Positions 12,506 to 64,000 of a stretch of DNA of 64,000 bases are shown piece after piece. Under the pieces are notes generated by a model, which saw only the letters and a program-made list of their open reading frames with translations, was not told the DNA's origin and made no database searches. Position 1 is the stretch's first letter. Each line of letters begins with the position of its first letter. Position numbers and translations under genes: made by a program. Source of the DNA: Chrysomallon squamiferum (taxonomy: Eukaryota > Animalia > Mollusca); assembly GCA_012295275.1 (NCBI GenBank), contig CM022670.1, positions 34,162,001-34,226,000 on the forward strand. Reading direction: 5' to 3'.

Positions 12506-13665
12506 TTATTTATATGTCAGTGTGATGTTTATGCTGTGGTTGCACAGTTGTTGTTTGTTAGGTACTGGGTACTGCTGCGGCACCTGTCTTTGCTGACAGT
12601 CACCATAGTAACGAGCATATCTCGAAATGTCACTCTGCGAATAAGCAGCATTTGGGTAAGTATTACGACTGGTTGGCTGTCTAATGACGTCATTGTTGTG
12701 AAAAGAGCTGGAGCCGTTTATCGTCGATATTTCACTGGGTTCTCGAAATCGATTCCACAAACCTTCGACATCTTTATTTGAGTTCGTGTTCGTCTGCAGC
12801 ACATCGAACGCGGTCTTCGGCGGCTCGTTTGAATGGAAATGCTGAACGGGTTTCAGCTCTTCCAGTTTTCCAGGAGGCGTCAGAGGAACTCCGTACGACT
12901 GGTTGACAAACTGATCCTGACTTCGATTAGTCGAAGATGGAGGATCTGTCTTTGACTGGTCGTCACAGTGCAAAGACAACAGCTTCTCGGCGCACTGCAG
13001 AAAACTGTAATCAGAGTTTGACCGCGAATCGAACTTGACTTGGCTAGCACACGATTCTGAAAAGAAGTCGCTTGGGACGGAAGAGCGCGGTCGACCGCAC
13101 CACGACGACGTGTTGTCAGAAGGAGTCTCCGTCTTAATCCACTGGCTGGAACTTCTGGACGACTCGGCGCTCAGAAAGTCGTCAAAACGCGTGTAGCCGC
13201 TACACACTGGGTGATCGTGTTGAGTCGGAATAAACGCGATGTTTCGAGAATCCACGGCAGAATCAGCGGCAGAATCTAACAACACAGACTTGCCGTCTTG
13301 TTTCTGAAACATTCCACTGTCATCCCTCTGTCGAAACGGCGGCTCGAAAAGAGCGTTGAGTCCCAGATGATGCGATGACGCTCCTTGCGAAGACGAACAA
13401 GACACAGATATTGATGGAGCTGCTGTGTGAGGTAAATAGCGGGTGTCCTCCGGGTAGGGGAGTGACCCGTGACTGCGAAATACGGAGCTCTGCTGGTGAG
13501 GACAGTGGCTGATGCTCTCCGTGTTGTTGATGTTGATCTGTGTGATGCAGGCGGGAGGCTGGAAGGAATCGTTGAAAATGTCGCAAGTGGGTAAAAATCC
13601 TTTGTACGGCCTTGACTTGGAGCAGGTGCATTCAAACGGTGGACAAGAACACATGGCGTCAGTTC
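12506..13665 (-). CDS. gcm: gcm terminal coding exon (Ser/Pro/Gln-rich, probable transactivation region)
   Basis: TTTTATTTTCAG|GA acceptor; 1160 nt open frame corresponding to the 3' part of the 429-aa ORF; CpG-rich codon usage. Confidence 0.9.
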
Positions 13666-62700: not shown

Positions 62701-64000
62701 TTTATAATAGTTATTCTTTTTAATAAATACAAGTTCTTCTCACCATAAGAGTAATCATTATCTTTTAGCAGTAAATAACTTACATTCATCTTTAATAACT
62801 TACAACTTGTTTTATAAATATTTTTGTAATATTTATTTCACATTTTAGAAAATTTGTTCTGGAAGCTGATGAATGTAGCAACAATGATGTTCTAAGTAAT
62901 TTTTCTGCTGCCTGCAAAGTATGCTCATTCATCTAATTTATTTTTTCTTTAAATTAAATAAATTAATAAATAATAATAAAAAATATAAAAAAACTTACCT
63001 TTAAATAATCTTTTTTTAAAAATTATTTCAAATATATTTTTTTATTTAGAAAATCCTTTTTTTTTTGCAATGCTTCACTGAAGTATTACTACCAATAGAC
63101 TAACATTAAATAAAAATCTTTCTTAGATCTCAGTTAATCAAAAATTATTTTTGTTAGAGTTTGCTTTTGGAATCATCTTTAAAAGAAAGTGATCAATCCA
63201 ATCAGAACGATGTCTGCAACAGGTATTTCACTTATTACTTGTTAAAGAACCATTGCATTTATTGCATTTTTTAACATGTAATACAAGGCATATGAGGTAT
63301 ACTAAACTATGGACAAGAATATTTATATGAATGCCAGCAATAAATGATATTCCAATATCATTTACTGATATAAATATAAACAGTAGAAACGTGCTTAGAG
63401 ACCTAACTTTTAAATAAACCTTAAACAAAAATAACACATAAAAAGAAACATAACTGTCCACAGTTACTAAAATTCATAATTTCATACATTTATTTTTGAA
63501 CTTTATGAAATCGAAAATAATTGATAACCATCCATAATATTTTTAATACATAAAAATATTCACTATTCTTTTATTATTATTGCTTTTAGGAGTGAAGTCA
63601 GCTGGTTCACCAAGAAACAGAAAAAGAAACCTAATGTTAAAGTCTATCAAAAACACAACAAAGTTATTGAGAATGAAGATGATCTTACATTTAGTTCACA
63701 AGTATGTGAAATTATATTTATAAAGCAGCTGTTATTATTTGAATTCACTTAATTATTTTTGGAATTTTGTATTTGACTATGAAAAGACAGTTTCTTAATG
63801 GTTCAAACAATTGTAAAAATATTACTATTATTTTATTAATTTCAGCCATAGTATTTTGGTATACTTAACAATTTTTTTTAATATATTTATTTTATTTTAT
63901 TTTATTTTATGTTTGGATCTTTTTTTTTTTTTATTTTATTGCTCTTTATCTGAATGTTAAAATTATCCAAATTTGTGTTTAGGAATTGGAACTATATGAA
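50768..64000 (+). CDS. SYCP2: SYCP2/SYCP2L-like synaptonemal complex axial element protein, 5' portion, runs off the window end; carries three apparent lesions (see findings)
   Basis: The spliced translation GDYEFQVGALECIFRL...IKDENFETDCRLFLNCLN...SVPC...DDFWVDFNYGS...WETI...EGKELCLHF matches my recollection of vertebrate SYCP2 (GDYDLQV...IKDSEFETDCRIFLN...FPC...EFWIDFNLGS...WEAV...EGKELLLYF). This is the armadillo-like plus Spt16M-like N-terminus followed by a long disordered K/S/N-rich region. Not confirmed by search. Confidence 0.88.
51530..51649 (+). CDS. SYCP2: SYCP2-like exon 2 (ECLFIKDMDHIL...FELSQ)
   Basis: TTTTAG|GAA ... CAG|GTATTA, 120 nt, open in phase 0. Confidence 0.7.
51804..51947 (+). 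CDS. SYCP2: SYCP2-like exon 3 (ILSKTVPAEERV...SLLIL); donor uncertain
   Basis: Strong acceptor (pyrimidine tract + CAG). The phase-0 end is followed by ATAAGT rather than GTAAGT, and the nearest GT (51952) is out of phase with the next exon's CAG acceptor. Confidence 0.6.
52573..52665 (+). CDS. SYCP2: SYCP2-like exon 4 (QVSVLLSS...LLEELLEIIN)
   Basis: TTTTCAG|CAA ... AAT|GTATAT, 93 nt. Confidence 0.7.
52988..53012 (+). CDS. SYCP2: SYCP2-like 25-nt microexon (ALCDGCPK)
   Basis: TTCTTCAG|GCA ... AAG|GTACAA; the phase 0 to 1 change fits both neighbours. Confidence 0.7.
53345..53430 (+). CDS. SYCP2: SYCP2-like exon 6
   Basis: TTTTCAG|TT ... GAG|GTGAAG, 86 nt, phase 1 to 0. Confidence 0.75.
53942..54030 (+). 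CDS. SYCP2: SYCP2-like exon 7 (VIKSYNILLEDCP...)
   Basis: TTGCAG|GTT ... CT|GTAAGA, 89 nt, phase 0 to 2. Confidence 0.82.
54337..54371 (+). CDS. SYCP2: SYCP2-like exon 8 (KQLFNLIFHVG)
   Basis: TTGCAG|G ... GAG|GTAATT, 35 nt, phase 2 to 1. Confidence 0.82.
54705..54847 (+). CDS. SYCP2: SYCP2-like exon 9 (DYEFQVGALECIFRL...KDENFET)
   Basis: TTTACAG|AT ... ACT|GTAAGA, 143 nt; most diagnostic SYCP2 motif. Confidence 0.9.
55120..55172 (+). CDS. SYCP2: SYCP2-like exon 10 (DCRLFLNCLNKQMNEKR)
   Basis: TTTTCAG|GAT ... AG|GTGAGT, 53 nt. Confidence 0.9.
55516..55561 (+). CDS. SYCP2: SYCP2-like exon 11 (VLSVPCIKAILGKRK)
   Basis: TTTTAG|T ... AAG|GTTATT, 46 nt. Confidence 0.85.
55963..56073 (+). CDS. 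SYCP2: SYCP2-like exon 12 (LSKPDDPGYDDFWVDFNYGSK...)
   Basis: TTTTAG|CTA ... CAG|GTATTT, 111 nt; FWxDFNxGS motif. Confidence 0.9.
56448..56520 (+). CDS. SYCP2: SYCP2-like exon 13 (NAEYEDVWETIRI...)
   Basis: TGTTTAG|AAT ... CAG|GTTTGA, 73 nt. Confidence 0.85.
57071..57237 (+). CDS. SYCP2: SYCP2-like exon 14 (...VTVELKK...EGKELCLHF...)
   Basis: TTATAG|AA ... GGG|GTAATT, 167 nt. Confidence 0.85.
57649..57708 (+). CDS. SYCP2: SYCP2-like exon 15 (KKVSSVNEPLHLFMKNGSLQ), probable GC donor
   Basis: TTCAG|AAA ... CAG|GCAAGT, 60 nt. Confidence 0.75.
58226..58499 (+). CDS. SYCP2: SYCP2-like exon 16
   Basis: AATAG|GCA ... GAG|GTATGC, 274 nt open frame (includes ORF 58298). Confidence 0.75.
58838..59002 (+). 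CDS. SYCP2: SYCP2-like exon 17
   Basis: poly-T AG|AT ... A|GTATGA, 165 nt, phase 1 to 1. Confidence 0.75.
59323..59413 (+). CDS. SYCP2: SYCP2-like exon 18
   Basis: TTTTAG|TG ... AG|GTATAA, 91 nt, phase 1 to 2. Confidence 0.72.
59686..59767 (+). CDS. SYCP2: SYCP2-like exon 19 (KSVMDDSGIGL...)
   Basis: CTTTAG|A ... CAG|GTATAA, 82 nt, phase 2 to 0. Confidence 0.75.
59900..59933 (+). CDS. SYCP2: SYCP2-like exon 20 (RKKGIQVEVFV)
   Basis: TTCATGCAG|AGA ... TCG|GTTAGT, 34 nt, phase 0 to 1. Confidence 0.68.
60159..62263 (+). CDS. SYCP2: SYCP2-like giant exon 21 (2105 nt; K/S/N-rich disordered region)
   Basis: TTTCCAAG|AT ... CAG|GTATGT; core of the 739-aa ORF; in phase with exon 20. Confidence 0.88.
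62450..62558 (+). CDS. SYCP2: SYCP2-like exon 22 (apparent 1-nt frameshift inside)
   Basis: TTCTTGTAG|AAT ... GA|GTAAGC. It is 109 nt where the flanking phases need 110, and all three frames hit stops. Confidence 0.6.
62849..62918 (+). CDS. SYCP2: SYCP2-like exon 23
   Basis: TTTTAG|A ... AAA|GTATGC, 70 nt, phase 2 to 0. Confidence 0.72.
63158..63222 (+). CDS. SYCP2: SYCP2-like exon 24
   Basis: TGTTAG|AGT ... AG|GTATTT, 65 nt, phase 0 to 2. Confidence 0.72.
63590..63701 (+). CDS. SYCP2: SYCP2-like exon 25 (SEVSWFTKKQKKK...)
   Basis: CTTTTAG|G ... CAA|GTATGT, 112 nt; EVSWF resembles the [DE][IV]SWL motif I recall from vertebrate SYCP2. Confidence 0.78.
63983..64000 (+). CDS. SYCP2: SYCP2-like exon 26, truncated by window end
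   Basis: TGTTTAG|GAA TTG GAA CTA TAT GAA, phase 0. Confidence 0.55.

What the first reader, a model, noticed from the sequence alone, without database searches (positions are those of the whole stretch)
12506..64000. Head-to-head gcm / SYCP2-like pair mirrors the human GCM2-SYCP2L arrangement: candidate ancient microsynteny
Seen in sequence: gcm (minus) and a SYCP2-like gene (plus) are direct, divergently transcribed neighbours with no recognisable gene between them. Established knowledge: in human, GCM2 and SYCP2L are adjacent and divergent on 6p24. Inference: if this is an invertebrate, the linkage may predate the vertebrate genome duplications and possibly the protostome-deuterostome split. 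That would fit a genomic regulatory block of a developmental TF plus a bystander gene, and would give a synteny route to finding poorly annotated invertebrate SYCP2 orthologues.
Basis: partly seen in the sequence, partly recalled or inferred. Interest (0 to 1): 0.8.

Follow-up and report, generated by a model that had tools for sequence, protein, structure and literature searches.

The report
Ancient gcm–SYCP2 gene pair in snail
A snail genome carries the developmental regulator gcm back-to-back with the meiosis gene SYCP2; database records suggest the same neighbours in an annelid, octopus and other molluscs, as in vertebrates, so the pair likely dates to their common ancestor and is likely kept because the DNA between the two genes controls gcm.

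Summary
Confirmed. The window is gastropod DNA with an intact gcm (minus strand, 633 aa) and a SYCP2-family gene (plus strand, runs off the window), head-to-head, start codons 31.4 kb apart, no gene found between. In 9 of 10 other spiralian species with both records in hand, the genes share a contig; accessions are consecutive in the annelid Owenia, Octopus vulgaris and Elysia. Much of this is already tabulated: GCM2=SYCP2L is a listed ancient chordate regulatory-block pair (PMC7530604, Table S1), and GCM+SYCP2+RB1CC1 is a listed 'Lophotrochozoa novel' block (PMC8851819). I found no paper joining the two, which likely dates the pair to the protostome-deuterostome ancestor (about 0.88). The mechanism is inferred (0.55): the 30 kb spacer keeps its CpGs and looks like gcm regulatory DNA running up to the SYCP2 promoter, leaving few harmless breakpoints. 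The SYCP2 introns seen are short and CpG-poor, unlike a classical enhancer-hosting bystander. MAK/ELOVL flanks are not supported outside vertebrates. Real and old, but one of hundreds of such pairs: moderate interest.

The parts
12506..20130 (-). gcm coding span, 5 exons (20130-19945, 15553-15304, 14824-14610, 14122-14032, 13665-12506), 633 aa
   Evidence: Open frame with GT-AG introns; Pfam GCM; 1ODH match E 3e-32; 51% to Haliotis GCM over 604 columns
14610..15553 (-). GCM DNA-binding domain, exons 2-3
   Evidence: PF03615 at 134.1 and 93.4 bits
21061..21420 (-). candidate gcm promoter and untranslated first exon (splice donor near 21079)
   Evidence: GC/CpG-rich island, a donor, and an acceptor 6 bases before the ATG; inferred, no RNA data
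20131..50781 (.). 30.65 kb spacer with no gene found; CpG retained (o/e 1.15); 11 GC/CpG-rich islands between AT-rich and microsatellite DNA; candidate gcm regulatory region
   Evidence: regulatory role inferred
50521..50890 (+). candidate SYCP2 promoter and untranslated first exon (donor after 50781); CpG-rich DNA ends at 50890
   Evidence: last CpG island and last dense CpG; donor seen; the frame upstream of the donor has no usable ATG; inferred
51530..62263 (+). SYCP2-like coding exons modelled (20 exons, 1332-aa frame, first ATG 51551)
   Evidence: start matches P0121
51804..57237 (+). exons encoding the N-terminal armadillo-like and Spt16M-like domains
   Evidence: SYCP2_SLD on exon 55963-56073; profile of 104 homologues outside the mollusc/annelid clade hits model aa 40-512 at 163 bits; closest relative folds like 5IWZ
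62450..64000 (+). further SYCP2-like exons (candidates 62450-62560, 62849-62918, about 63159-63221, 63590-63701, 63983 to window end); frame not resolved; gene continues off the window
   Evidence: the 62450-62560 piece has no single open frame

Best explanation
The window holds an intact gcm and a SYCP2-family gene head-to-head 31 kb apart, a pairing that likely descends from the protostome-deuterostome ancestor and is likely kept because the DNA upstream of gcm, up to the SYCP2 promoter, would be gcm regulatory DNA. Shown: both genes, their orientation, the gene-free spacer, a CpG-retaining domain over gcm and the spacer that stops at 50890, and a CpG-depleted SYCP2 body with short introns. 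Shown by proxy (contig length, accession order): neighbourhood in an annelid, octopus, gastropods and bivalves. Inferred: that the spiralian and chordate pairs are one ancestral block (about 0.88); that the spacer islands are gcm enhancers; that a break between the genes would usually cut gcm from them or SYCP2 from its promoter, so few breakpoints are tolerated. SYCP2 would then be the boundary of the gcm landscape rather than a host of intronic enhancers.
For: Linkage: 9 of 10 species with both records share a contig length; consecutive accessions in Owenia (CAH1774265/4), Octopus vulgaris (CAI9726572/3-5) and Elysia chlorotica (EGW08_000882/1); Octopus sinensis two numbers apart. Published rows: consecutive models in Crassostrea and Mizuhopecten; GCM2=SYCP2L listed as an ancient chordate pair; kept in gnathostomes, hagfish and lamprey. 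Chance: if both genes merely share a linkage group, 0.6-2 of the 724 chordate-conserved pairs would be adjacent in a given mollusc (rough sum), against 301 and 513 pairs listed as shared with non-chordates. It persists in Octopus although coleoid genomes are extensively rearranged. Anatomy: CpG o/e 1.21 gcm, 1.15 spacer, 0.15 SYCP2 body; 11 islands in the spacer, none in the SYCP2 body. Human: SYCP2L is listed with parathyroid-specific super-enhancer genes and is parathyroid-expressed (z 7.2, TPM 235; GCM2 595), which fits shared regulatory DNA. Zebrafish gcm2 has an enhancer 8 kb upstream.
Against: No enhancer, conserved non-coding element or chromatin data for this genome. GCM-type and Su(H)-type sites are not enriched (2 GCM sites vs 0.57 expected, 11 of 100 shuffles reach it; Su(H) 1 vs 4.4). 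Adjacency is not strict: Nucella 4 and Solemya 14 locus tags apart; Lymnaea records on contigs of different length. The chordate table counts only 1 of 5 non-vertebrates, so acorn worm, sea urchin, centipede and limpet likely scored negative. The lophotrochozoan block lists no SYCP2 for Lottia, Lingula or Capitella, where RB1CC1 is the steadier partner. No GCM row beside Acropora SYCP2. Orientation outside this window is unknown; the human head-to-head orientation is recalled. CpG retention is usual around invertebrate developmental genes (recalled) and does not itself show constraint. No zebrafish-tetrapod conserved elements at the gcm2 locus.
Confidence: 0.55

Rival explanations
1. Ancient but neutral: the pair was adjacent in the bilaterian ancestor and has survived in slowly rearranging genomes without selection.
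For: Insertions or separations in Nucella, Solemya and possibly Lymnaea; negative scores in four non-chordates in the published key; no motif enrichment.
Against: Kept in Octopus, whose genome is heavily rearranged, and from lamprey to mammals. A 30 kb spacer is a large target for breaks if it is inert.
Confidence: 0.17
2. Classical genomic regulatory block: gcm enhancers sit inside SYCP2 introns, or beyond SYCP2, and SYCP2 is an unresponsive bystander.
For: Listed as such on gene classes alone. A human H3K27ac region chr6:10,872,988-10,896,049 would reach into the 5' part of SYCP2L (gene coordinates recalled). The 3' part of the snail gene is outside the window.
Against: The 19 modelled introns total 6.7 kb, median 333 bp, and the gene body is CpG-depleted with no island. 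Human SYCP2L is expressed with GCM2 in parathyroid.
Confidence: 0.13
3. Convergence: gcm and SYCP2 lay on one ancestral linkage group and became neighbours separately in chordates and spiralians.
For: Different outer neighbours (MAK/ELOVL2 vs RB1CC1 and a heme NO-binding gene); no support yet from ambulacrarians, ecdysozoans or coral.
Against: Expected only about 0.1-0.3% per pair, a quarter of that with matching orientation, and it would have to be fixed for long in both lineages.
Confidence: 0.08
4. Functional co-regulation: shared enhancers drive both genes in the same cells, and the co-expression is what is selected.
For: Head-to-head layout; human gap only 4891 bp; both genes parathyroid-specific in the human table.
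Against: Promoters about 29 kb apart here, so no shared bidirectional promoter; opposite CpG states. No somatic role of SYCP2 seen in the papers read; parathyroid expression may be leak-through.
Confidence: 0.07

Closest known systems
GRB pair 130 'GCM2=SYCP2L', Touceda-Suarez et al. 2020 (PMC7530604, Table S1 row 131)
   Same: Same two families, adjacent, classed as developmental regulator plus bystander, dated before the vertebrate duplications.
   Different: Supported there by 1 of 5 non-vertebrates (key 10000; amphioxus by their inclusion rule, my inference). Human gap 4.9 kb vs about 30 kb here. No protostome support listed.
Block 2576 'Lophotrochozoa novel', Robert et al. 2022 (PMC8851819, supplementary file 4)
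   Same: GCM and SYCP2 as consecutive models in Crassostrea and Mizuhopecten, with RB1CC1.
   Different: Dated to Lophotrochozoa; SYCP2 rows only in two bivalves. Gastropod, cephalopod and annelid SYCP2 linkage, and the tie to the chordate pair, are added here. RB1CC1 was not seen in the window's first 12.5 kb (read by eye).
Vertebrate Mak-Gcm2-Sycp2l-Elovl2 block (PMC13489515, PMC4746653)
   Same: Gcm next to a SYCP2-family gene.
   Different: MAK and ELOVL2 flanks not found in the invertebrate records seen. The snail gene is taken as a pre-duplication SYCP2/SYCP2L (inferred).
SYCP2 family (mouse N-terminal structure 5IWZ; Pfam PF18581, PF18584) and GCM family (1ODH; PF03615)
   Same: Domain content and sequence motifs match.
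   Different: Long lineage-specific low-complexity middle region (701-aa exon); C-terminus outside the window.

Membership tests
GCM transcription factors | GCM DNA-binding domain (PF03615) | tested here: met
   134.1 and 93.4 bits on exons 2 and 3, cut-off 25; 1ODH E 3.2e-32
GCM transcription factors | Intact reading frame, placed among orthologues | tested here: met
   633 aa, no internal stop; in a gastropod clade, support 99/94
GCM transcription factors | Binds the GCM site and activates targets | not testable with these tools
   needs a binding assay
SYCP2/SYCP2L | Spt16M-like domain (PF18584) | tested here: met
   29 bits on one exon, cut-off 26.5; 67.9 bits on the closest relative P0121
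SYCP2/SYCP2L | Armadillo-like domain, by Pfam PF18581 | tested here: inconclusive
   No hit on single short exons or on P0121; passes the cut-off on the Owenia homologue (46.5 bits) and is weak on Tegillarca
SYCP2/SYCP2L | N-terminal helical plus beta-domain fold as in 5IWZ | tested here: met
   Tested on the stand-in P0121, not on the window's spliced protein: phmmer E 6.6e-34; AlphaFold confident over about aa 40-380; Foldseek best 5IWZ E 3.4e-19, next hits armadillo repeats. The window model aligns to a homologue profile over aa 40-512
SYCP2/SYCP2L | C-terminal coiled coil that binds SYCP3 | not testable with these tools
   lies beyond the window end; no genome held
SYCP2/SYCP2L | HORMAD-binding closure motif; meiotic axis localisation | not tested
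   not looked for
Ancient genomic regulatory block | Developmental regulator next to an unrelated gene | tested here: met
Ancient genomic regulatory block | Neighbours (at most one gene between) in distant phyla | tested here: met
   window; consecutive accessions in Owenia, Octopus vulgaris and Elysia; published rows. Proxy evidence; not met in Nucella (4 tags) or Solemya (14 tags)
Ancient genomic regulatory block | Regulator's enhancers inside long bystander introns | tested here: inconclusive
   introns seen are 132-625 bp and CpG-poor; the 3' part is outside the window
Ancient genomic regulatory block | Conserved non-coding elements | not tested
   no related genomic DNA obtained
Ancient genomic regulatory block | Bystander not co-expressed with the target | tested here: not met
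   published human table lists both GCM2 and SYCP2L as parathyroid-specific; untested in the snail. So it works like a regulatory block, but classical membership is not claimed
Bidirectional-promoter gene pair | Start sites within about 1 kb | tested here: not met
   candidate promoters near 21.3 kb and 50.6 kb

The most novel reading that the evidence does not exclude
RB1CC1-gcm-SYCP2 is one block from the last common bilaterian ancestor, catalogued twice at too young an age, and the gcm-SYCP2 link is kept because gcm enhancers also drive the meiotic axis gene in gcm-positive somatic cells (as human parathyroid expression of SYCP2L hints), giving SYCP2 proteins an old non-meiotic role.
Probability: 0.1. 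Interest if true: 0.75.

Novelty: new member of a known kind. Interest (0 to 1): 0.38.

Why it matters
It would move a named chordate regulatory-block pair back to the protostome-deuterostome ancestor by joining two published catalogue rows. It marks the 30 kb upstream of gcm as the place to look for enhancers of a regulator of glia, blood, pigment and parathyroid/gill cells (roles partly recalled) in animals where its control is unstudied. It predicts unannotated SYCP2 genes beside gcm in Lottia, Lingula and Capitella, and it offers a simple explanation for SYCP2L expression in human parathyroid. Ancient pairs of this kind number in the hundreds, so the gain is modest unless the co-expression proves functional.

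Tried and rejected
No whole genome is held, so flanks beyond the window could not be read. Run search: no RNA holder listed. No read or contig lay-out was obtained, so assembly continuity across the spacer, non-coding conservation and the 62450-62560 frame stay untested. The third protein search, with alignment A1, covered only 2864-5000-aa proteins and found none, so names were obtained for only 27 of 150 SYCP2 hits, chosen mostly from the top and the mollusc/annelid clade. 15 of the 25 species named had no same-species GCM record in hand (only the best 120 of 1283 GCM hits were listed) and were left out of the tally, among them Ptychodera, three arthropods, a chiton and Gigantopelta. A cnidarian test by gene identifiers failed: none in the passages searched. 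GCM and Su(H) site enrichment: none. Rejected: an ATG at 50768 as the SYCP2 start (frame breaks); a four-exon gcm model (stops); the Syndecan hit at 30055-30543 (below cut-off, microsatellite frame); UL128 and GldH hits (below cut-off). Irimia 2012 main text has no gcm or sycp mention and its supplements could not be read; they may list the pair. Earlier findings of this scan: none in four look-ups.
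Full report
Source. The window is AT-rich, microsatellite-rich animal DNA. The GCM exon is 90% identical to Haliotis and 83% to Patella, and a tree puts it in a gastropod clade with support 99/94. One SYCP2 exon is 83% identical to Gigantopelta aegis. It is a gastropod; I did not place it further. No whole genome is held.

gcm. Five minus-strand exons from 20130 to 12506 give a 633-aa frame with four GT-AG introns; leaving out the 91-bp fourth exon breaks the frame. 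Exons 2 and 3 carry the Pfam GCM domain and exon 2 matches mouse GCM1 in 1ODH. An acceptor just before the ATG and a donor near 21079 in a CpG island suggest an untranslated first exon (inferred).

SYCP2-like gene. Twenty plus-strand exons from 51530 to 62263 give a 1332-aa stop-free frame; one exon, with a GC donor, was found only by comparison with P0121. The ATG at 51551 matches the start of P0121. One exon passes the SYCP2_SLD cut-off. A profile of 104 homologues from outside the mollusc/annelid clade hits residues 40-512 at 163 bits; these homologues were themselves found with P0121, so this is not fully independent. P0121 matches mouse SYCP2 5IWZ by sequence and by predicted fold. The Pfam ARLD model did not hit the window's exons or P0121 but passes on the Owenia homologue. 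The gene runs off the window, and the piece at 62450-62560 has no single open frame.

Spacer. Of 365 stop-free frames of 38 aa or more, 144 low-complexity ones were dropped. The other 221 gave one sub-cut-off hit on a microsatellite frame. Rfam and ARAGORN found nothing in the window. CpG o/e is 1.21 over gcm, 1.15 over the spacer and 0.15 over the SYCP2 body, with a sharp edge at 50890 and raised TpG/CpA beyond it; repeat masking does not change this. The pattern fits germline gene-body methylation of SYCP2 and an unmethylated gcm domain (recalled knowledge of mollusc methylation). It also argues against a hidden methylated gene in the spacer, where the only 1-kb windows below 0.7 are at 22 kb and 44 kb, both repeat arrays. 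Eleven GC/CpG islands lie in the spacer and none in the SYCP2 body. SYCP2 introns are 132-625 bp, median 333. GCM and Su(H) sites are not enriched.

Linkage elsewhere. I compared contig lengths and accession order, which are proxies and give no orientation. Of 150 SYCP2 hits, 27 were looked up and named 25 species; 10 of these also had a GCM record. Nine of the 10 share a contig length. Consecutive: Owenia (CAH1774265.1, CAH1774264.1), Octopus vulgaris (CAI9726572.1, CAI9726573-5.1), Elysia chlorotica (EGW08_000882, 000881). Two numbers apart: Octopus sinensis. Four locus tags apart: Nucella (1.24 Mb contig). Fourteen apart: Solemya. Same scaffold, distance unresolved: Candidula (0.52 Mb), Mizuhopecten (2.2 Mb), Haliotis rubra (9.4 Mb). 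Different lengths: Lymnaea, whose GCM record is a 164-aa fragment. Nucella and Candidula each have a second gcm on another contig. The sample is almost all molluscs, so it holds few independent lineages: gastropods, bivalves, cephalopods and one annelid.

What is in print. PMC7530604 (abstract, passages, Methods, supplement part 1 and table rows seen) lists GCM2=SYCP2L as ancient pair 130 with one non-vertebrate, key 10000. Its rules allow one-species support only through amphioxus, so I read acorn worm, sea urchin, centipede and limpet as negative. Its Table S3 gives a human gap of 4891 bp; the human head-to-head orientation is recalled. PMC8851819 (passages and supplement rows, file cut when stored) lists block 2576, 'Lophotrochozoa novel': RB1CC1, GCM and SYCP2 in Crassostrea and Mizuhopecten, GCM with RB1CC1 but no SYCP2 row in Lottia, Lingula and Capitella. 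Its blocks need three genes, which would hide a two-gene link to chordates (my inference). Acropora SYCP2 sits in another block with no GCM row. PMC13489515, PMC4746653 and bioRxiv 2025.03.16.643584 (passages) describe the vertebrate block; amphioxus Elovl2/5 has other neighbours. Full-text searches found no paper joining the chordate and lophotrochozoan rows. The library lacks most subscription papers, and the Irimia 2012 supplements could not be read. SYCP2 is known as an ancient metazoan protein (seen only as a citing sentence and reference).

Is the link homologous? If the genes only shared a linkage group of 700-2500 genes, a given pair would be adjacent with probability 0.1-0.3%, or 0.6-2 of the 724 chordate-conserved pairs (rough sum). 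The same study lists 301 and 513 pairs shared with non-chordates. The pair is also long-lived on each side, including Octopus, whose lineage is extensively rearranged (PMC9023564, passages). I put common descent at about 0.88. The missing support from ambulacrarians and ecdysozoans is the main gap. As a recalled lead only: human RB1CC1 lies on 8q11, in a region paralogous to the 20q13 region of SYCP2, which would fit an ancestral three-gene block; one search names chromosome 8 and 20 segments among the four paralogous regions.

Mechanism. The anatomy fits a cis-regulatory constraint held in the spacer: gcm faces 30 kb of CpG-retaining, island-rich DNA that ends at the SYCP2 promoter, so a break between the genes would usually cost gcm enhancers or the SYCP2 promoter (inferred, 0.55). 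Human parathyroid tables list SYCP2L with tissue-specific super-enhancer genes and at TPM 235 beside GCM2 at 595 (PMC10920874, passages and supplement rows). They also list an H3K27ac region chr6:10,872,988-10,896,049; it is row 758 of a sheet of over 7000 rows and may not be among the 634 super-enhancers. Zebrafish gcm2 has enhancers at -8 kb and +41 kb, with no conserved elements against tetrapods (PMC3157436, passages). None of this tests the snail. Rivals: neutral survival (0.17), classical bystander with intronic or distal enhancers (0.13), convergence (0.08), selected co-expression (0.07).

Verdict. New here: gastropod, cephalopod and annelid support, the joining of two catalogue rows, and the anatomy that points to the spacer rather than the introns. 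Interest 0.38.

Noticed in passing
window 12506-12540 (minus): GCM ends in a short motif ([10 protein letters not shown]) that also ends 16 of 28 named GCM proteins compared, all molluscs, Owenia or Lineus, after a divergent region; none of the five arthropod sequences shown (one a fragment) has it. Possibly a spiralian cofactor-binding site.
   Followed up: partly
window about 13620-13660 (minus): A small Cys motif ([12 protein letters not shown]) just after the GCM domain is shared by the six spiralian GCMs printed; possible extra metal site.
   Followed up: no
window 50890: Very sharp CpG edge (o/e about 1.1 to 0.15) about 110 bases into the first SYCP2 intron.
   Followed up: partly
window 57649-57708: 60-bp SYCP2 exon followed by a GC donor.
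   Followed up: yes
window 62450-62560: Exon-like piece with no single open frame; protein-like text in two frames. Assembly indel or a different splice.
   Followed up: partly
window 17534 and 39010: Two full GCM-type sites (intron 1 and spacer), possible autoregulation, but not above shuffles.
   Followed up: partly
window 44050-44790: Degenerate GTA/GCA trinucleotide array, the only large CpG-poor patch in the spacer.
   Followed up: no
proteins P0183, P0163, P0242: SYCP2-like proteins in a barnacle, a damselfly and a copepod; their linkage to gcm was not testable.
   Followed up: no
proteins P0124, P0134, P0310: SYCP2 homologues carry misleading names: 'titin homolog', 'male genitalia morphogenesis', 'serine/arginine repetitive matrix protein 2-like'.
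   Followed up: no
PMC8851819 supplementary file 4, rows 9827-9829: Rows with CAPTE identifiers (Capitella, my reading) are labelled Capsaspora owczarzaki.
   Followed up: no
left of window position 1: RB1CC1 is predicted beyond the left edge, by the order in scallop and oyster; none seen in 1-12505 by eye.
   Followed up: no
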